A stretch of 64,000 nt of DNA from an uncultured Alphaproteobacteria bacterium (GTDB taxonomy: Bacteria; Pseudomonadota; Alphaproteobacteria; MPNO01; UBA2964): contig OX638326.1 in the NCBI GenBank assembly GCA_951812775.1, positions 4,015,897 to 4,079,896 on the forward strand, in the 5' to 3' direction. Each line of letters begins with the position of its first letter. Position 1 is the first letter of the stretch. The position numbers were made by a program, and so were the translations under genes. Positions 24,537-31,125 of this stretch are shown one piece after another. Under the pieces are notes generated by a model, which saw only the letters and a list, made by a program, of their open reading frames with translations, was not told the DNA's origin and did not search any database.

Positions 24537-25616
24537 ATGACACTCATTCTGTCGAACGAAGACATTGAACAGGTCCTGACAATGGAGGACCTCGTGCCGG
24601 TGCTCGAAGAGGCCTATATCGAACTCGTCGAAGGGCGTGGCGGTAATCGTCGTCGCTCCGATATCGTGACACCAACGACCCTCCGCGATGATGGTCTCTA
24701 TGCCTTGAAGTCGATGGATGGTGTTATCCCAAAACTCGGCGTTGGGGCAATTCGGCTCAACTCCGACATTCTGACATTTCCGACGACGGGAAATGAAATG
24801 CGGCGTGTAAAAGTACCAGCCGCACCCAACAATCGCTATGTCGGACTCGTGTTGCTGTTCAGTACGCATACTGGCGAACCGCTGATGATTTGCCCTGACG
24901 GGGTGATGCAGCGGATGCGGGTCGGGGCAACCAACGGCATTGCCGCCAAATATATGGCACGCGAAGATGCCGATACGCTGGCAGTGTTAGGGTCCGGCTG
25001 GCAGGCGGGTGCCGCTGTTTTGGCGCATGATGCTGTTCGTGACCTCAAGGACATTTGCGTTTACAGCCCGAACCCGGAGAACAGAAAAGCATTCGCCGCC
25101 GAGATGGAAGAGGCACTTGAGAAGGAAGTGAGGATTTGCGAAACAGGTGAAGAAGCCTGTAAGGGCGCGCAGATGGTCGCCTGTGCGACCAACGCCGTCA
25201 TGCCGGTGTTTTTCCATGACTGGTTAGAGCCCGGCATGCATATCGGCACGGTTCGCCCCGGCGCGACAGAAGTCGAGAAAGCGGCCTGGCCTGATATCGA
25301 ACTCTTTGTTCTTCTGGATCACGATGACAATGCGGAAATGATCTATACCCACGGCGTTCTGGTGGGAGAGGACAAGGTAGGTTCCTACGGTGTAGAACAA
25401 GATGAATGGCACAATAATCTGCCGTCGCTTCCGCAGGTCATCAATGGTGATCGGGAAGGCCGCACCAATGACGAGCAGTGCTCCTGTTTCCTGAACAATC
25501 TCGGGATGGGATATCAGTTCGCCGCGACCGGCTATGTCGTCTACAACAAGGCCAAAGAGCTGGGCCTTGGTACAGAATTACCGACAGACATGTTTACCGA
25601 AACGGTGCATCCCTAA
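24537..25616 (+). CDS. Ornithine cyclodeaminase/mu-crystallin family protein
   Basis: TGEPL, RVGAT, GSGWQA, CATN, PGMH, GMGYQ. Confidence 0.85.
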   Translation: MTLILSNEDIEQVLTMEDLVPVLEEAYIELVEGRGGNRRRSDIVTPTTLRDDGLYALKSMDGVIPKLGVGAIRLNSDILTFPTTGNEMRRVKVPAAPNNRYVGLVLLFSTHTGEPLMICPDGVMQRMRVGATNGIAAKYMAREDADTLAVLGSGWQAGAAVLAHDAVRDLKDICVYSPNPENRKAFAAEMEEALEKEVRICETGEEACKGAQMVACATNAVMPVFFHDWLEPGMHIGTVRPGATEVEKAAWPDIELFVLLDHDDNAEMIYTHGVLVGEDKVGSYGVEQDEWHNNLPSLPQVINGDREGRTNDEQCSCFLNNLGMGYQFAATGYVVYNKAKELGLGTELPTDMFTETVHP

Positions 25617-25819
25617 TTTGGTTACCACTCGACCGGGTTTCACTAAAACCCTGGGTCGGATTCGTATGGTTGTTTTTACTTTTCGATTCTAATTCTTCTA
25701 CTAATATTTATTTTAATATTGTAAAAAGAACAAAAAAAGAACATATAGAAAGGATTATTATAGAAAGGATTATTAAGGTGGCTTTGAGCTGGTTGTGCGT
25801 TGGGATGGAGGTGCCTTGA

Positions 25820-26261
25820 GTGAAGAAAATCACCAGTTTTATTAAAGTTATTTTGGTCGCGGGTATTAGTGCGGCGCTTACTGTTTGGTTGATTTTGGGT
25901 GGCGAAATTATTGGGCCTTCAAGGAATTTGAACGAGCTTAAGTTGGATTTTTCCTATTCGGATTTTCTTTCTACTACCCTTACTGCGCTTGGCTTGATTT
26001 TGGCCGCCCTTGCAATTGGAATTGGAATTATCGCATTCCGGACAATTAGCGATATAAGGCAAAGAAGCTCGGCAAATTGCCGAGGAAACTGTTGCGAAAG
26101 AAGTTGAAAACCGTTTGCCAACCGCAATCGACGACGCTGTAGAAAAGGCGAGTATGGAAGGAATTCTGGATGAAGCTCTTGAGAAAGCGGTGATGCAGTT
26201 ATCTCGCGGTGGTGCAGGTATGAATACGGAATTGCAAGACGAGGAGGATAATGATGGCTAG
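25820..26261 (+). pseudogene. Two-TM membrane protein with helical C-terminal tail, frameshifted near 26060
   Basis: Two hydrophobic helices; a second frame continues KEARQIAEETVAKEVENRL...EDNDG* with its stop overlapping the next start. Confidence 0.65.
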
Positions 26262-26766
26262 TCAGGAAATGGAACGTATCTGCGGGCGTGACAGGCGTGT
26301 TATCGACAGGTACTTGAAGGACAAGCTGGTATTGCTGGGCAAACTCGCGGCAGAGCTTGGGATAAGCGTCAAAATATCAGCGTTGGACCGGGGGAAGTCA
26401 GGTAAGATCGAATGTAAGGATGGTGCTTACACGATCAAAATAAATCGGTACGAAACCCGCGAACGCCAGAGGTTTACGCTTGCACATGAAATAGCTCATT
26501 TTCTTCTTCACCGGGATAAATTTGTCACCGATGATTATGGTGAGATTTATGACAATGTTCTTTATCGATCAGGCCAACCGGAAGAAATTGAACATGAAGT
26601 CAACCGGCTTGCTGCGGATTTAATTATGCCCATTGACCCTGTTCATTCCGATGTGGAAGAGGCAGGAGTTCCTGTCAGTGATGAGGTAATCGAGCGCCTG
26701 GCTCGAGAGTGGTGTGTGTCTAAGGCGGCTATGGAAATAAGGCTATCCTCCTATATGGCAGCATAA
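26251..26766 (+). CDS. ImmA/IrrE family metallo-endopeptidase (no HTH)
   Basis: RQRFTLAHEIAH (HExxH), E.EVN.LAADLIMP, VS..AMEIRL. Confidence 0.9.
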   Translation: MMASQEMERICGRDRRVIDRYLKDKLVLLGKLAAELGISVKISALDRGKSGKIECKDGAYTIKINRYETRERQRFTLAHEIAHFLLHRDKFVTDDYGEIYDNVLYRSGQPEEIEHEVNRLAADLIMPIDPVHSDVEEAGVPVSDEVIERLAREWCVSKAAMEIRLSSYMAA

Positions 26767-26782
26767 AATAAAAGGGACTAAT

Positions 26783-27658
26783 ATGCCACCCAAGATCGGG
26801 GACTACATCCCAACTCTTGTAATTAGGCCAAGCGAGATGAATGGCTTGGAGTATCTACCTGGGGTTTCAAAAGACAGGATGACTCCTGTTATCAGGATGA
26901 CTCCTGTTATCAGGATGACTCCTGTTATATTGCTAGCACCCTGGACAAACGCGCTCTCACTTGAAAAGGCGATGGAAAGAGTTGAAAAGGCATTTCTACA
27001 TCGAAAATTCTTTCTCGATATTGATAAAGATTACGATCCTACGAATTTGGAAAGTCCTGCCCAAGCGGAATGGCTAGAAATAAGAAATCCAGTAAATCAA
27101 TTTCAGTCTTGGCGAAATTTTTGGATTAAATATCCGTCAGTTTTACCTTGTCTCCAGCTAGAAAAGCTTAATGATAAAGAAATTCGAGACGAGATCGAGG
27201 AGGTTCAGCAACAAGGACGCGAGTTCTGTCTCCGAATCGAACTCGACAAACAGCCAGGAAATATACAAGCGGCAATAAACCAACTTGTTGACTTAGGGAC
27301 AGTAGATTTTACAGTTGTGATAGAAGGGGGTGGACTCTAAATCCTCTTAATTTGTACGCTGGAGCGTATGGTTACATTACAGAAACGCTAGCGGTACTTG
27401 ATGGACGAATTCCTATCGTTGTCTCTTGTACATCGATGCCAAAAGGGTTCCAAAATGTAGAAGGTCTGGTGGAGAACAAGTTTTCTAATCACGAACTCCT
27501 AGACCAAATTAAAAGAAACTCAAATAAAGAAACAATTTTATATGGTGATTGGGGTAGTACGAGACCTCGAGAAAGGCCAGACGGATTTCGCCAAGCACCG
27601 CTTCCAAGAATTGATTATCCAAAAGATGACGCCTGGCACTTCGCGCGTAGTAAAAAAA
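26783..27658 (+). pseudogene. Beta-family protein, 5' part (frameshift at G-run near 27330, then IS-interrupted)
   Basis: YIPTL..RPSE..GL, SCTSMP, YGDWGS, PRIDYP..WHFAR resemble the Beta_protein family; 18-bp triplication (RMTPVI x3). Confidence 0.65.
26875..26928. repeat. 18-bp tandem triplication
   Basis: CAGGATGACTCCTGTTAT x3. Confidence 0.95.
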
Positions 27659-27700
27659 GGGAATTATATAGTTAATTAACCTTGCGGTTTATCTGCAAAT

Positions 27701-27835
27701 CTTGGGGCGGAAAGGAGGTGATGCCAGATGCCTAACATACCAAAACCAGCCATGACAAAATGGTTGTAAGGATGGAAATCGTCTTCTCCCCAAGGTGTTC
27801 GTAGCACTTGGGGAGAAGGTAGGTTATTTTTAACC
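27701..27835 (+). other. Candidate small RNA/mini-ORF: extended SD, 13-codon ORF, strong hairpin
   Basis: GAAAGGAGGTGAT at 27710-27722; ATG 27728 to TAA 27769 (MPNIPKPAMTKWL); stem CTTCTCCCCAA/TTGGGGAGAAG at 27783-27818. Confidence 0.5.
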
Positions 27836-27847
27836 ATAGATCAAGGG

Positions 27848-28471
27848 TTATGGTTCGACACCTAGCAACACGAGGGGCACAGCGGGCACGCCACGGCCCT
27901 GCCGGATGACATTGAGCAAGTCACGCTCATAATACGGGACACCGCTCGACATTTGCGATTCAAGGGTTTTCATCGGCAGGACTTCTATCCCTACATCGAG
28001 GATATCCGAGACGTAAAAGCTCAAGTGTTTAACGAACAGGTCATGCGCGACGAACGCATACTTTCCGAACTGAACTTCGACCGCGACACGATCCTTCACG
28101 AAATCGGTCTGATTGTAGGACATAATCGGCTTGCGGCCCGTCGCCGCTATGGCTGACTTCTGCTCAGCCTCGCTTTGCCCCTGAATCGAGCGTAGCAAAC
28201 TCTCATCCTCCGTTACCCAAAACGTGTTCCGGCGTTCTTCCCAACCCTTTGCTTCCAGGCCAGACTTAAATGCTGCATTCATATCGACAGGGCTATAGAG
28301 CGTTCTGCCCTTTCGCGTCTTTTCTGTCGACACTTTTGTCCGGCAGGCTTCAGCATCGACTTGAGCATCGACTTGAGCAATGACGCCCAATAGTTCCGCC
28401 CAGAGCTCGGAGTGGTGAACAAGCAGATATTCCTCACCATTTAAATGGGAATATCTGGCTTTCACCCGCAT
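27848..28471 (-). CDS. BglII/BstYI family type II restriction endonuclease
   Basis: QTDFVKDRVAVEVQFG (D...ExQ variant of the PD-(D/E)xK active site), DVGIEVLP, PLVLLG. Confidence 0.88.
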   Translation of the reverse strand: MRVKARYSHLNGEEYLLVHHSELWAELLGVIAQVDAQVDAEACRTKVSTEKTRKGRTLYSPVDMNAAFKSGLEAKGWEERRNTFWVTEDESLLRSIQGQSEAEQKSAIAATGRKPIMSYNQTDFVKDRVAVEVQFGKYAFVAHDLFVKHLSFYVSDILDVGIEVLPMKTLESQMSSGVPYYERDLLNVIRQGRGVPAVPLVLLGVEP

Positions 28472-29391
28472 TAATGACCACCGTTCGGCAGAACCGGGTT
28501 ATAAACCGGTTTTCCCATGGGGCGGGTGCGCAGTGCCCCGCTACGCCACGCGGCAACGCGCTGCTGCGCCAGTTCGACATATTCAGGAACAATATCGCAA
28601 CCGTAAGCGTCGCGCCCATGCATCAATGCAGCGATAACCGCAGAACCCACTCCCATATATGGGTCAAGAACCACGTCGTTTTCATCGGTCATCGAGAGAA
28701 CCAGTCTCTCAACCAATTCAACCGGAAATTGGCAGGGGTGGATTGTCTTTTCTGGATGGTTATTCTTGACGTTCGGGAACTCCCAGACATCGGACGGGTT
28801 CTTACCCTTCGGGTTGCCGGACAGTTTGCCGGTATTCGGCCCTTTGAAATGTTTTTTGCCTGGATATTTTGATGGAACGCGGATCGGGTCCAAGTGCCAC
28901 GTGTAATCGTCCGCACGTGTCCACCAATTGATTGTCTCATATCGGCCTGACAGCCGCCGTGTACAGTGCAAGCCGTGCCCGAAATGCCAGATAATCCGAT
29001 TCCGCATTTTCAGGCCGCATCTTTGGAAGATTGGGTATGTGAGGATATCCAACGGCATTATCTCGCCGTTCTGCACGAAGTTTCCGACCTGCCAGCAAAT
29101 GGACCCCTTTGGATGCAGAACGCGCACACATTCCTCGATAACGTGCTTTTGCGCCTCCAAATAGCTGTCCAAGGACGATTTGGCTTCGTAGTCTTTCCCC
29201 AAATTGTAAGGAGGTGACGTAACAATCAGTTTGCACTGCCCATCCGGGATCGAGCGCAAAAATTTCAAATTATCAAGACAGGCCAGCACAGGAACGCGAT
29301 TATCGTAGGAGCGAACGACCGGCCTTGGGAACAGTGAACGAGCAAGGGCAGCGGGATCATTGATGACAGGGGGAATTACGGCGTTATTCAT
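28471..29391 (-). CDS. Site-specific amino DNA methyltransferase, beta class (probably N4-mC)
   Basis: TSPPY (motif IV) precedes HPCQFP and LDPYMGVGS (motif I). Confidence 0.92.
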   Translation of the reverse strand: MNNAVIPPVINDPAALARSLFPRPVVRSYDNRVPVLACLDNLKFLRSIPDGQCKLIVTSPPYNLGKDYEAKSSLDSYLEAQKHVIEECVRVLHPKGSICWQVGNFVQNGEIMPLDILTYPIFQRCGLKMRNRIIWHFGHGLHCTRRLSGRYETINWWTRADDYTWHLDPIRVPSKYPGKKHFKGPNTGKLSGNPKGKNPSDVWEFPNVKNNHPEKTIHPCQFPVELVERLVLSMTDENDVVLDPYMGVGSAVIAALMHGRDAYGCDIVPEYVELAQQRVAAWRSGALRTRPMGKPVYNPVLPNGGH

Positions 29392-30344
29392 CGTGCTTCC
29401 CCCACAATCAGATCGCGATACATGAGCCGTTTGCCGATCATCCCCCCAACGATATCGCGCATTTGATCGATGGTATGCCGGTCGCGGATATTGTGACGGC
29501 CTGCGAACTCATTAACATATCGATCAAGGTGCTTTGGGCTGATATTATGGAACGTCCCTTTGTGCGCTCGCTTAAGCATCGCCCAGAAACTTTCGATTCC
29601 ATTCGTATGGGCTTGACCGCGCACATATTCGCCAACTGAGTGATTGACAGCTTCATGATCACGTCGCACACTTTTATAGCCCGCAGCATCGTCCGTGTAG
29701 ACCTTTGCGGTCAAATCGCTCACACTTTCAGTGAACCTTCGTAACGTCGCGCCATCGGTGTTCTTTACTGATCGCGCCGTCACGCGGTTGGTTGTGCGGT
29801 CCTTTGCGCCGATAACGGCGGTCTTGCCAACCGGTCCGCGCCCGCTCAGATGTTTGCGTTTCGCCTTTGGCATATTCTTGCGCTTACCGCCCATGTAGGT
29901 TTCGTCGATCTCGACGGGACCGACGAATAATCCTTGTTCGCTAGCAAACGCTTCGCGGAGCCGATGCGCCATAAACCAAGCCGATTTCTGGGTGATTTTT
30001 AAATCGCGATGAAGTTTCATGCTCGAAACACCTTGCAGGCTCGTCGCATTCAAATAAATCGCGAATGCCCACTTACGGAGAGGTATCTTGGATTGTTCCA
30101 TGACCGAACCGTGACGTACTGAAAAGAACTTACGGCAATCACGGCATCTATAAGGGAGAGGCTTGCGATTTGCCTTCGGTGCCGTGTTGCGGCTTCCGCA
30201 TTTTGGGCAAAGCCGGTCTTCCGGCGTAGGCCATCGCACATCCTCAAACCAATCTTCCGCTGATGTTTCACAGGGGAACATCTCTGCCAACTCAATCAAG
30301 CTGATACCTTCGCGGTGATGTTTACCAGGTGCGTTGTTTGCCAT
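29388..30344 (-). CDS. IS1595-family (ISXO2-like) DDE transposase
   Basis: CPKC...CRDC zinc ribbon, HTH (SSMKLHRDL..TQKSAWFM), EIDETY, YTD, HTNGIESFW, YVNEF. Confidence 0.95.
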   Translation of the reverse strand: MANNAPGKHHREGISLIELAEMFPCETSAEDWFEDVRWPTPEDRLCPKCGSRNTAPKANRKPLPYRCRDCRKFFSVRHGSVMEQSKIPLRKWAFAIYLNATSLQGVSSMKLHRDLKITQKSAWFMAHRLREAFASEQGLFVGPVEIDETYMGGKRKNMPKAKRKHLSGRGPVGKTAVIGAKDRTTNRVTARSVKNTDGATLRRFTESVSDLTAKVYTDDAAGYKSVRRDHEAVNHSVGEYVRGQAHTNGIESFWAMLKRAHKGTFHNISPKHLDRYVNEFAGRHNIRDRHTIDQMRDIVGGMIGKRLMYRDLIVGEAR

Positions 30345-30406
30345 ATCATTCTCCTATGTCCCATACATTAGGACAATACGCCTGGTTAGTCAAGTATATA
30401 ATTCAC

Positions 30407-30647
30407 TAAAAAAAAGACTTGGGGATACAAGGAAGCTGCTAAGGAGGTGGTTGATAGCGATGCTTGGGATGGTACCCTTGGAATTTGGGGGGAGGAAATG
30501 ATTCAGGAGACGGCTATCAATCCATCATTTGCCATTGATACTGCGCAAAAAAATGTAGCTGCGCGAGTAAACATACACCTTCATCGACAAGCTTTTTATG
30601 GCGACAATATTCGTGGAATTGATTTGGATGAAGACTGGGTTGACTAG
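30407..30647 (+). pseudogene. Beta-family protein, 3' part beyond the IS
   Basis: Removing the IS and one target copy gives in-frame ...WHFARSKKKTWGYKEAAKEVVDSDAW...RVNIHLHRQ...DWVD*. Confidence 0.8.
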
Positions 30648-30693
30648 AAATTGTTATGGCTTGCGGCTTCCGCACTGTCTTTTTTACAAACCC

Positions 30694-31125
30694 CTAGACG
30701 TCATCTACAGACACAAGCGCCTCCTTCAATATCGCGCGTATTTCATCCGGCATATCTGTTGATTTTCGAGCTTCGAGGTCGAAGAAAACTTCAACCGCAT
30801 CCTGGGTTGCGATAAGCGTTCCGGTTTCGGCATTTGTCATGCGTTGCGTGTAAGTCAGGCTCTTATTGCCGAGCCGCGTGAACCCGCTTTTGACGATAAG
30901 CAGTTCACCGGCGTTTGCCTCGTGGACAAAATCGTTTGTCGTGCGCGCGACAACCACGCCAACACCGTGTTTCTTCATCGCGGCATGGGCGCCGTCAATC
31001 ATGTTCCATATATGGAAACCAGCATCGTCAAAGAAATGCCCATAGTAACGAACGTTCATGTGGCCGATGTGATCGCAATACCAGGTATGAACAACGGCCC
31101 GATGGGTTTCCATCCAGTCGGCCAT
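30694..31125 (-). CDS. Acyl-CoA thioesterase (4HBT/YbgC hot-dog fold)
   Basis: CDHIGHMNVRYY..FDDA; GNKS. Confidence 0.85.
   Translation of the reverse strand: MADWMETHRAVVHTWYCDHIGHMNVRYYGHFFDDAGFHIWNMIDGAHAAMKKHGVGVVVARTTNDFVHEANAGELLIVKSGFTRLGNKSLTYTQRMTNAETGTLIATQDAVEVFFDLEARKSTDMPDEIRAILKEALVSVDDV

What the first reader, a model, noticed from the sequence alone, without database searches (positions are those of the whole stretch)
27651..30414. IS1595-family transposon carrying a complete restriction-modification system inside its own IRs
Seen: one 2,748-bp element bounded by 23-bp imperfect IRs (19/23) and flanked by an 8-bp TAAAAAAA duplication. It holds transposase, beta-class SPPY methyltransferase and BglII/BstYI-type endonuclease, all open and translationally coupled (ATGA overlap at 29388-29391, TAATG at 28471). 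A TTGACT lies inside the upstream IR. Known: IS1595 members make 8-bp target duplications and some carry passenger genes (tIS); type II RM pairs act as addiction modules and anti-phage systems. Inference: this is a minimal self-mobile defence/addiction unit, with RM expression driven through the transposase operon.
Basis: partly seen in the sequence, partly recalled or inferred. Interest (0 to 1): 0.85.

Follow-up and report, generated by a model that had tools for sequence, protein, structure and literature searches.

The report
Self-moving insertion sequence carrying restriction-modification genes
A 2.7-kb jumping gene carries, inside its own end repeats, a full DNA-cutting and DNA-marking (restriction-modification) pair, and has copied itself to at least four places in this bacterial chromosome.

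Summary
Window 27659-30406 is a 2,748-bp IS1595-family element with 23-nt imperfect IRs (19/23) and an 8-bp TAAAAAAA duplication. It splits a Beta_protein gene.

It encodes transposase, PF01555 methyltransferase and a BstYI orthologue (E 3e-80), with 4-nt and 1-nt gene overlaps.

The whole unit is mobile. The genome holds four 100%-identical full copies with the same boundaries in different contexts, one broken copy and one solo end. No internal IR follows the transposase.

The same three-gene element occurs in two other genera. There all three genes are 70-84% identical in protein while synonymous sites are saturated.

All four RGATCY hexamers rank 2, 4, 9 and 10 of 4,096 for under-representation in this genome.

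The pattern is wider. 42 of 48 IR-bounded relatives carry cargo, and 18 of the 34 examined carry RM-type genes. Four further IS1595 elements in this genome carry type IIG, type III, MTase-HNH or partial methyltransferase cargo.

Passenger-carrying IS1595 elements (tIS) and transposon-like RM units with 8-bp duplications are already published. I therefore call this a new member of a known kind.

RM activity, the promoter and current transposition are untested.

The parts
27651..27658 (.). Left 8-bp target-site duplication, TAAAAAAA
   Evidence: It is identical to 30407-30414.
27659..27681 (.). Distal terminal inverted repeat, GGGAATTATATAGTTAATTAACC
   Evidence: It matches the other end at 19 of 23 positions. 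Here TTGACT is replaced by TTAATT.
27711..27769 (+). Conserved Shine-Dalgarno block AAAGGAGG(TGATGC) followed by a 13-codon micro-ORF (27728-27769). It reads inward, convergent with the endonuclease gene. Function unknown.
   Evidence: Alignment A1 and the print-out. The block and an ORF of 13-19 codons ending just before the hairpin are shared by the window, L027 and L029-31/L052. I read the micro-ORFs by eye from those outputs.
27782..27818 (.). Stable hairpin between the endonuclease stop and the micro-ORF. On the + strand it is followed by a T-rich run. It is probably a bidirectional terminator or insulator (inference).
   Evidence: free energy -30.0 kcal/mol on + and -25.6 kcal/mol on -, z-scores -4.6 and -5.7, 0 of 200 shuffles as stable. 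The terminator scan did not call it.
27848..28471 (-). Type II restriction endonuclease, BstYI orthologue (207 aa). Predicted site RGATCY.
   Evidence: PF09195 at 1.7e-32. BstYI structure 1sdo at E 3.1e-80 over the full length, with the FVKDRVA(I/V)EVQFGKY stretch conserved.
28471..29391 (-). Beta-class N4/N6 DNA methyltransferase (306 aa) with an SPPY motif
   Evidence: PF01555 at 5.8e-51. The nearest solved structure is M.RsrI at E 2.5e-30, with SPPY where RsrI has DPPY. NCBIfam hits are all below their cut-offs.
29388..30344 (-). IS1595-family DDE transposase with an N-terminal zinc ribbon (318 aa)
   Evidence: PF12762 at 5e-38 and PF12760 at 25.3 bits against a 25.4 cut-off. NF033547 at 1.4e-52. 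The precomputed domains PF12760 and PF12762 are listed for P0001.
30384..30406 (.). Transposase-proximal terminal inverted repeat. It holds TTGACT (reverse complement of 30388-30393). Its tip is ..TTCAC in this copy and ..TTCCC in two other full copies.
30407..30414 (.). Right 8-bp target-site duplication, TAAAAAAA
26783..27658 (+). 5' part of the interrupted Beta_protein (PF14350) gene. It is itself split by a frame change near 27340.
   Evidence: profile positions 1-149 (ORF 26783-27340) and 195-278 (ORF 27352-27675).
30415..30647 (+). 3' part of the interrupted Beta_protein gene
   Evidence: profile positions 294-341. By my reading, the frame is continuous with 27352-27658 once the element and one TSD copy are removed.

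Best explanation
Window 27659-30406 is an autonomous transporter insertion sequence (tIS) of the IS1595 family. Between its two terminal IRs it carries a transposase followed by a complete type II restriction-modification pair, in the order methyltransferase then BstYI-like endonuclease.

Shown:
- The whole 2.75-kb unit, RM included, has been inserted at several chromosomal sites with 8-bp AT-rich target duplications.
- Its copies have since served as substrates for recombination that exchanged their flanks.
- The three-gene unit has been kept together under purifying selection in at least three bacterial lineages.

Inferred:
- The DDE transposase binds the GGGAATTATATA termini and moves everything between them.
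- The three genes are read as one operon from a promoter in or near the transposase-proximal IR. The ATGA and TAATG overlaps couple translation in the order transposase, methyltransferase, endonuclease, so methylation capacity is made before or together with cutting capacity.
- The endonuclease cuts unmethylated RGATCY. The SPPY methyltransferase protects the host's sites, probably as N4-methylcytosine.
- The RM benefits the element through defence of the host and a penalty for losing all copies. The IS gives the RM intragenomic and horizontal mobility.
For: Copies in the genome.
- Four 100%-identical copies of 2,745-2,747 of the 2,747 query bases lie at C1:4043556, 3612526, 1513971 and 1035487.
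- A fifth copy lacks its first 479 bp and is interrupted by another IS.
- An 81-bp solo end is also present.

Target duplications.
- TAAAAAAA flanks the window copy on both sides.
- TTAAAATT flanks copy 4 on both sides.
- AATGCAAT is shared by the left of copy 3 and the right of copy 5.
- TATGGATT is shared by the right of copy 3 and the left of copy 2.
- No internal IR was found.

Host gene. Removing the element and one TSD copy restores the Beta_protein reading frame.

Relatives with the same cargo.
- The same transposase-M-R unit is in L027 and in L029, L030, L031 and L052. Protein identities are transposase 70-73%, M 79-82%, R 73-84%.
- dN is 0.11-0.24. dS is 4.09 in one comparison and too saturated to compute in the other five.
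- These six transposases form one clade with SH-aLRT 98 (quick tree).

RM function.
- The endonuclease is a BstYI orthologue at E 3e-80.
- AGATCT, GGATCC, AGATCC and GGATCT rank 2, 4, 9 and 10 of 4,096 hexamers for under-representation (O/E 0.54-0.68).
- None of the 12 GATC sites in the element is RGATCY.

Family habit.
- Of 48 IR-bounded relatives, 34 have perfect 8-bp TSDs and 42 carry at least 497 bp of cargo.
- TSD bases are 80% A or T.
Against: - No expression, methylation or restriction data exist. No RNA holder was listed.
- The consensus scan found no sigma-70-type promoter using the TTGACT in the IR. An internal promoter is not excluded.
- NCBIfam's best methyltransferase hits are adenine-specific families, all below cut-off. 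The modified base is therefore open.
- The window copy and copy 2 have a changed tip (..TTCAC against ..TTCCC), which might impair further transposition of these two.
- No empty-site allele was found. The Beta_protein gene was in 0 of 40 relatives. The left flank of copy 4 was in 0 of 11 same-genus genomes.
- Other palindromes are also depleted, for example CGATCG at 0.50. Part of the RGATCY signal may therefore be general or older than this element.
- With four copies, loss of a single copy carries no post-segregational penalty.
Confidence: 0.88

Rival explanations
1. The unit is a real tIS, but the RM cargo is no longer a working restriction system. Either the endonuclease is silent or attenuated, or only the methyltransferase acts, and the genes are carried as neutral hitch-hikers.
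For: There are no functional data. No dedicated promoter or C-protein was found. Four endonuclease gene copies could be costly if fully active. Several relatives carry fragmented methyltransferase genes, namely L036, L102, L065 and L109.
Against: All three ORFs are intact in four copies. The BstYI catalytic stretch is conserved. dN is far below the saturated dS for M and R across three lineages. RGATCY is depleted, including the two non-palindromic forms.
Confidence: 0.12
2. The RM pair lies outside the true mobile unit. The outer IR would be a chance match, and the copies would have arisen by segmental duplication or recombination rather than transposition of the whole unit.
For: Three copies have non-matching flanks. 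The same M-R pair exists without any IS1595 transposase on a Sphingobium plasmid.
Against: Two copies have perfect 8-bp TSDs at exactly the IR tips. The unmatched flanks pair up across copies as split TSDs, as recombination between copies would produce. No internal IR exists. 34 of 48 relatives show the same IR-plus-TSD architecture around their cargo.
Confidence: 0.02
3. The element is a mobile unit but is now immobile or moved only in trans. The identical copies would reflect one past burst, and the changed tip (..TTCAC) or low transposase expression would prevent further autonomous movement.
For: The tip variant occurs in two of the four full copies. The genome holds many other IS1595 transposases at 39-59% identity. 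No insertion polymorphism was seen in the laid contigs.
Against: 100% identity over 2.7 kb in four copies argues for very recent movement. The transposase ORF is intact. The ..TTCAC variant itself sits at two different sites, so it has moved at least once.
Confidence: 0.1

Closest known systems
Transporter IS (tIS) of the IS1595 family (Siguier, Gagnevin and Chandler 2009, Res Microbiol 160:232; the ISNwi1 / 'ISNwi1+' subgroup)
   Same: - A single IS1595-type DDE transposase, short terminal IRs, an 8-bp target duplication, and passenger genes between the transposase gene and the distal IR.
- The ISsaga paper (passages) and the TnCentral preprint (passage) define tIS. The latter says tIS are restricted to the IS1595 and IS66 families.
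- The ends GGGAATTAT fit the ISNwi1 end consensus 'ggnnatTAT', and the length fits the 1.75-4.75-kb passenger-bearing forms. Both figures are as I recall them from ISfinder tables, not from any call.
   Different: - I could not read the 2009 paper: it is not held. I therefore cannot say whether a complete R+M pair is among its listed passengers.
[quoted passage not shown]
- Added here: four identical copies in one genome, co-divergence of transposase, M and R across genera, and RM as the most frequent identifiable cargo.
Transposon-like RM units of Furuta, Abe and Kobayashi 2010 (NAR 38:2428; passages read)
   Same: RM genes bounded by imperfect inverted repeats and inserted with 8-bp target duplications. 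Their N. gonorrhoeae unit has a 26-bp IR and an 8-bp TSD. It holds a type IIG RM homologue, an S-subunit homologue and a gene with a transposase motif. That is the same layout as L108 in this genome.
   Different: Their units were single-copy. The transposase-like gene was judged a likely inactivated derivative, or was absent as in X. oryzae, and the authors left open what moved them. Here the transposase is intact, the family is identified, and multiple identical copies show movement of the whole unit.
BstYI restriction-modification system (solved structures 1sdo, 1vrr, 2p0j)
   Same: The endonuclease aligns over its full length with BstYI (E 3.1e-80). The predicted recognition site is RGATCY.
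   Different: The genomic vehicle differs. The specificity of this enzyme and the base modified by its methyltransferase are untested.
The same M-R gene pair on Sphingobium sp. CAP-1 plasmid p2 (NZ_CP046255.1)
   Same: About 67% nucleotide identity over M and R, in the same order and with overlapping genes. The record annotates them as site-specific DNA-methyltransferase and BglII/BstYI family endonuclease.
   Different: There is no IS1595 transposase and there are no IRs. The pair sits next to a recombinase-family gene. This shows that the RM module exists independently and was captured by the IS.
Tn7-like transposons with defence cargo (Benler et al. 2021, mBio; search listing and abstract start only)
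   Same: A transposon lineage whose cargo is rich in defence systems.
   Different: Tn7-like elements are large and multi-gene, with several transposition proteins and site-specific targeting. This element is a minimal one-transposase IS.

Membership tests
IS1595 family insertion sequence | Transposase with the ISXO2-like / IS1595 DDE domain | tested here: met
   PF12762 at 5.2e-38, 130.9 bits against a cut-off of 27. NF033547 at 178.7 bits against a cut-off of 75.
IS1595 family insertion sequence | N-terminal zinc-ribbon domain | tested here: met
   PF12760 at E 1.5e-5, 25.3 bits against a 25.4 cut-off, which is borderline. The precomputed Pfam list for the same protein, P0001, includes PF12760. 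CPKC...CRDC is visible in the translation.
IS1595 family insertion sequence | Terminal inverted repeats and an 8-bp target-site duplication | tested here: met
   The IRs match at 19 of 23 positions (20 of 23 in copies with the ..TTCCC tip). 8-bp TSDs flank the window copy and copy 4, and split TSDs are shared among copies 2, 3 and 5.
ISNwi1 subgroup of IS1595 (definition recalled, not from a call) | Ends of the form ggnnatTAT. Passenger-bearing forms of about 1.75-4.75 kb. | tested here: inconclusive
   The ends GGGAATTAT and the 2,748-bp length fit, and 48 relatives share GGG(A/G)ATTATATAC-type ends. The subgroup definition is from memory. No source named the subgroup: the names are only 'IS1595 family transposase'.
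Transporter IS (tIS) | Genes unrelated to transposition lie inside the IRs of a single IS and move with it | tested here: met
   M and R lie between the transposase gene and the distal IR. All four copies include them.
Composite (compound) transposon | Cargo flanked by two complete IS copies | tested here: not met
   There is one transposase gene per unit, and only 23-nt IRs at the ends.
Type II restriction-modification system, BstYI-like | An endonuclease homologous to BstYI with the catalytic stretch, plus an adjacent DNA methyltransferase | tested here: met
   1sdo at E 3.1e-80 over the full length. PF01555 at 5.8e-51 for the adjacent gene.
Type II restriction-modification system, BstYI-like | Both enzymes act on the same site (RGATCY): cleavage of unmodified DNA and protection by methylation | not testable with these tools
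   Indirect support only. The four RGATCY hexamers rank 2, 4, 9 and 10 of 4,096 for depletion. The element holds 0 RGATCY among its 12 GATC sites.
C-protein-controlled RM system | A small helix-turn-helix controller gene with the RM genes | tested here: not met
   There is no further ORF with a Pfam family. The 53-aa ORF 27676-27837 has none.

The most novel reading that the evidence does not exclude
IS1595-family transporter ISs with GGGAATTATATAC-type ends may form a specialised shuttle for restriction-modification systems that crosses phyla.

- RM of several architectures is their commonest identifiable cargo: type II M+R, MTase-HNH fusions, type IIG with or without an S subunit, and type III.
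- Closely related transposases carry different RM modules.
- One genome, this one, can hold at least five different RM-type-bearing tISs.
- Their amplification both multiplies RM dosage and seeds large inversions.
- The BstYI-type lineage has also kept a convergent micro-gene at its distal end (strong SD, 13-19 codons, hairpin). This may take the regulatory place of a C-protein or antisense RNA.
Probability: 0.4. Interest if true: 0.7.

Novelty: new member of a known kind. Interest (0 to 1): 0.55.

Why it matters
How RM systems move has been argued mostly from context such as plasmids, phages, flanking repeats and long target duplications. This case is clean. A one-transposase IS carries a complete type II RM inside its IRs and is caught in the act, with four identical copies, intact or exchanged 8-bp duplications, and a disrupted host gene.

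It also shows that the association is old: transposase, M and R co-diverge across genera.

It is not a one-off either. Many related ISs, including four more in the same genome, carry other RM architectures.

For genome biology, RM genes can then be multi-copy repeats that drive inversions.

For annotation, 'IS1595 family transposase' next to an RM pair should be checked for shared IRs.

For defence-system surveys, small tISs are a vehicle that island-based methods would miss.

Tried and rejected
- Empty-site alleles. The Beta_protein N-terminal part was found in 0 of 40 relatives. The left flank of copy 4 was found in 0 of 11 same-genus genomes. No empty site could be shown. These are samples, several of them incomplete, so this is not evidence of absence.
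- Near-identical elements elsewhere. There were none among 40 relatives: 6 of 40 had only partial 64-72% matches. There were none in plasmids: 6 records, none covering 80%. The phage collection was not searched.
- Sequencing runs. Two holders from one study were listed, and no RNA holder. Laid contigs showed no joint across the element. Contig depth over the element was about five times that of the flanks in X1, but the tool warns that such depth is not a copy number. A 26-nt loose end from X2 was not present in G000 at up to 3 mismatches, so it says nothing about polymorphism in this strain.
- Promoter scan. No site used the IR's TTGACT, and three hits against a mean of 3.9 in shuffles is not enrichment.
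- Rfam. No family at E up to 1.
- PADLOC on 20 cargo ORFs that had no Pfam family. 17 still had no hit. L089 turned out to be a type II M+R pair, and L101 gave a weak methyltransferase fragment.
- Literature. Six searches found no paper in the held library that describes an IS1595-family element with a complete RM pair as passenger. The key 2009 paper and the ISfinder reviews are not held, and supplements are closed. 'Not found in print' therefore applies only to these searches.
- The careful tree did not finish, so the quick IQ-TREE result is used.
- I considered whether the shared TAAAAAAA at the window copy and at the right end of copy 2 means one event. I rejected this because the sequence beyond the 8-mer differs, being a Beta_protein gene in one case and a terminator T-run in the other. 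An unrelated element, L055, also sits in TAAAAAAA. A-tract preference is the simpler reading, but the coincidence with the shared ..TTCAC tip is not fully explained.

Full report
OBSERVATION.
The element runs from 27659 to 30406, which is 2,748 bp.
- It is bounded by GGGAATTATATAGTTAATTAACC and, at the other end, the reverse complement of GTGAATTATATACTTGACTAACC. These match at 19 of 23 positions.
- It is flanked by TAAAAAAA at 27651-27658 and 30407-30414.
- In one search this IR pair is the longest inverted repeat in 27400-30700.
- Three open minus-strand genes fill it: transposase 29388-30344, methyltransferase 28471-29391 and endonuclease 27848-28471. They overlap by 4 nt (ATGA) and 1 nt (TAATG).
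- Pfam gives PF12762 plus PF12760 for the transposase, PF01555 for the methyltransferase and PF09195 for the endonuclease. NCBIfam gives the IS1595 transposase model at 178.7 bits against a cut-off of 75.
- The element is about 50-55% G+C and sits in a 42-47% G+C stretch.
- It interrupts a Beta_protein (PF14350) gene. The flanking ORFs match profile positions 195-278 and 294-341. By my reading, removing the element and one TSD copy puts them in one frame.

THE WHOLE UNIT IS THE MOBILE UNIT.
- A search of the window's own 4.15-Mb single-contig genome found four copies at 100% identity over 2,745-2,747 of 2,747 bases. It also found a fifth copy covering element bases 480-2745 and an 81-bp solo transposase-proximal end.
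- The fifth copy is interrupted by a 1,249-bp IS that has more than 20 copies in the genome.
- The flanks differ from the first base outside the IR tips, so these are not parts of larger duplications.
- Copy 4 has its own perfect TSD, TTAAAATT.
- The other flanks pair up across copies. AATGCAAT lies left of copy 3 and right of copy 5. TATGGATT lies right of copy 3 and left of copy 2.
- Homologous recombination between inverted copies exchanges exactly one flank per event. This three-way permutation therefore needs at least two such events. That is an inference from the TSD pairing.
- A genome-wide search with both 22-nt ends at up to 4 mismatches hit only element termini, one 94%-similar related IS end and one other terminus-like site. 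Nothing lay inside the element.

RELATIVES.
- Among 40 genomes of the same genus, family and order, none has this element. Six have partial matches at 64-72%.
- A scan of species-representative genomes with the transposase gave 574 confirmed relatives, of which 80 were kept. They are 52-75% identical and nearly all lie in MAG records from many phyla.
- The two closest lineages carry the same cargo in the same order. They are L027 (a Boseongicola MAG, where the 2,810-bp contig is essentially the element) and L029, L030, L031 and L052 (four copies in one Parasphingorhabdus MAG).
- Protein identities to the window are transposase 70-73%, M 79-82% and R 73-84%. dN is 0.11-0.24. dS was 4.09 in one of the six comparisons and too saturated to compute in the other five.
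- On a quick IQ-TREE of 50 transposases these six form one clade with SH-aLRT 98. The careful search did not finish.
- The 4-nt transposase/M overlap and the 1-nt M/R overlap are kept in L027 and L030.
- The three genes have therefore travelled together, under purifying selection, for a long time.
- The M-R pair also exists without any IS1595 transposase. It occurs on a Sphingobium plasmid (about 67% nucleotide identity). It also occurs in two same-order genomes, where the DNA match covers only R and M. I checked the neighbouring ORFs only in one of these, L017. It is a module that was captured.

THE RM PAIR.
- The endonuclease aligns end to end with BstYI (1sdo, E 3.1e-80), including the FVKDRVA(I/V)EVQFGKY stretch. 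BglII itself matches only at E 0.21.
- BstYI cuts RGATCY. That fact is established knowledge that I recall, not a result of a call.
- The methyltransferase is nearest to M.RsrI among solved structures (E 2.5e-30) and has SPPY where RsrI has DPPY. SPPY is, as I recall, typical of N4-cytosine enzymes. NCBIfam gives only sub-threshold adenine-methylase hits, so the modified base is open.
- With an order-4 Markov expectation, AGATCT, GGATCC, AGATCC and GGATCT have O/E of 0.54, 0.61, 0.68 and 0.68. They rank 2, 4, 9 and 10 of 4,096 hexamers.
- The depletion of the two non-palindromic forms is what a degenerate RGATCY enzyme predicts. Other palindromes are also low, however (CGATCG at 0.50).
- The element has 12 GATC sites, none of them RGATCY. 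About three would be expected if the flanking bases were random, and the probability of none is roughly 0.03 by my arithmetic.

REGULATORY ANATOMY (MOSTLY INFERENCE).
- TTGACT lies in the transposase-proximal IR, but the consensus scan does not call a promoter there.
- TTGAC occurs in the proximal 45 nt of 21 of 48 related elements and in the distal 45 nt of 11 of 48.
- In this element the distal IR reads TTAATT at that place.
- Downstream of the endonuclease stop lies a 17-bp-stem hairpin at 27782-27818. Its z-scores are -4.6 and -5.7, and 0 of 200 shuffles fold as well.
- Between the hairpin and the distal IR the three BstYI-type lineages share a block that reads AAAGGAGGTGA(T/C)GC on the plus strand. 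An ORF of 13-19 codons follows and stops just before the hairpin and a T-rich run. In the window it is 27728-27769, MPNIPKPAMTKWL. In L027 it ends ..PAAMTRWA (I translated these by eye).
- In the print-out this block appears only in those six elements.
- It may be a small convergent gene or, on the other strand, an anti-SD-like 3' UTR. Its function is unknown.
- Rfam has no match.

WIDER PATTERN.
- An IR/TSD scan of the 80 loci found 48 elements with GGG(A/G)ATTATATAC-type ends. 34 of them have perfect 8-bp TSDs. Lengths run from 1,119 to 4,466 bp.
- Six are bare ISs of 1.1-1.26 kb. 42 carry at least 497 bp beyond the transposase gene.
- TSD bases are 80% A or T, least constrained at positions 4-5 (n = 38).
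- I examined the cargo of 34 of the 42. For 28 I ran Pfam on 40 of their largest ORFs, with PADLOC on the unexplained ones. For the other 6 I used tblastn or clustering. Eight elements with small ORFs were not examined.
- RM-type genes were found in 18 of the 34:
  - The BstYI-type pair in four (L029, L030, L031, L052).
  - N6_N4 MTase-HNH fusions in L037, L065 and L068.
  - N6_N4 MTase with T5orf172 in L028.
  - EcoRI-type MTase with GmrSD_N-HNH in L042.
  - C5 MTase with HNH in L047.
  - Type IIG-like proteins in L064 and L082.
  - N6_Mtase with an S subunit in L077.
  - A type II M+R pair in L089.
  - A lone N6_N4 MTase in L091.
  - MTase fragments in L036 and L102.
  - GmrSD_C in L058.
- Other cargo includes a proteasome-like protein plus a 143-aa protein (L093, L106), an SDH-type protease (L055), and many proteins without any family.
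- Closely related transposases carry different cargo: L058 and L065, L064 and L102, L055 and L097.
- In the window's own genome, other IS1595-type elements are also RM-type carriers:
  - L108: 4,888 bp, TSD TTTTAAAA, type IIG-like protein plus S subunit.
  - L109: 5,469 bp, TSD matching at 7 of 8, split N6_N4 Mod plus an 844-aa ResIII protein, that is type III.
  - L110: about 4.35 kb, MTase-HNH plus a PIN protein.
  - L111: 2,543 bp, TSD AAACATTA, partial MTase.

COMPARISON WITH WHAT IS KNOWN.
- tISs are a defined category. [quoted passage not shown] - Furuta et al. 2010 described RM genes bounded by imperfect IRs with 8-bp TSDs. One is an N. gonorrhoeae unit with a type IIG homologue, an S homologue and a transposase-motif gene. 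They did not know what moved these units. They cite the IS1595 paper among reports of RM or M genes flanked by ISs (passages).
- The window element is therefore a new and unusually clear member of a known kind.
- What I did not find in six literature searches is any of the following:
  - A description of a complete RM pair inside an autonomous IS1595 element.
  - Its multi-copy state.
  - RM as the predominant identifiable cargo of this IS group.
- The 2009 paper, ISfinder and REBASE could not be consulted.

VERDICT.
- Movement of the whole unit is shown by sequence. RM activity, operon transcription and current transposition are inferred.
- Interest is moderate at 0.55. The broader 'RM shuttle' reading is plausible and worth a systematic census.

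Noticed in passing
window 25500-30650, with ORFs 26251-26766, 26783-27340 and 27352-27675: The insertion target lies in a low-G+C stretch (0.36-0.47). It holds an ImmA/IrrE-type peptidase (PF06114) followed by a Beta_protein (PF14350) gene. Apart from the IS insertion, that gene also changes frame near 27340, so it was or is a pseudogene.
   Followed up: partly
G000:C1:2388028-2389276 (inside copy 5; loci L005/L006): A 1,249-bp IS with a 383-aa transposase-like ORF, not family-checked, is present in more than 20 near-identical copies in the genome. It interrupts the fifth copy of the element. It is flanked there by a 38-bp duplication of element bases 2497-2534, which is unusually long for a TSD.
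   Followed up: partly
L108, L109, L110, L111 (G000:C1:2307442-2312329, 1115991-1121459, about 3393015-3397365, 1498778-1501320): Four further IS1595-type transporter ISs in the same genome carry other RM-type cargo. These are type IIG plus S subunit, type III Mod (split) plus Res, MTase-HNH plus PIN, and a partial N6_N4 methyltransferase.
   Followed up: partly
window 27711-27818; L027, L029-L031, L052 distal ends: A conserved strong Shine-Dalgarno block, a 13-19-codon ORF and a hairpin with a T-run lie convergent with the endonuclease gene. The arrangement is specific to the BstYI-type elements. On the operon strand the block resembles the anti-SD end of 16S rRNA (..CACCTCCTTT..).
   Followed up: partly
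L029, L030, L031, L052 (Parasphingorhabdus MAG): The four copies differ in length (2,721-2,958 bp). A roughly 15-24-nt unit (..ATGGCGATCAGGGGC..) is tandemly expanded inside the loop of the post-endonuclease hairpin. Their transposase reading frame appears split, into a 278-codon ORF plus a 72-aa ORF. This could be a real frameshift or a long-read assembly error.
   Followed up: no
G000 copies at C1:4046302 and 3612526; L055: Two independent insertions of the ..TTCAC tip variant both lie in TAAAAAAA, one in a gene and one in a terminator T-run. An unrelated family member in an Acidobacteriota MAG (L055) has the same TSD. This points to an A-tract hot-spot but is not fully explained.
   Followed up: partly
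whole genome G000: CGATCG is the most under-represented hexamer (O/E 0.50), and CTATAG, CTCGAG and GCCGGC are also low. TTGACA/TGTCAA (0.65) is among the ten most depleted hexamers, which is curious for the -35 consensus.
   Followed up: no
L027-L106 record titles: Nearly all of the 80 closest transposase loci are MAG records spanning Pseudomonadota, Chloroflexota, Acidobacteriota, Gemmatimonadota, Rhodothermota, Myxococcota, Binatota, Nitrospira and one Thaumarchaeota bin. One title reads 'Candidatus Poriferihabitans', and several bin names look to me (recollection only) like marine-sponge metagenome bins. A shared habitat might explain the cross-phylum spread.
   Followed up: no
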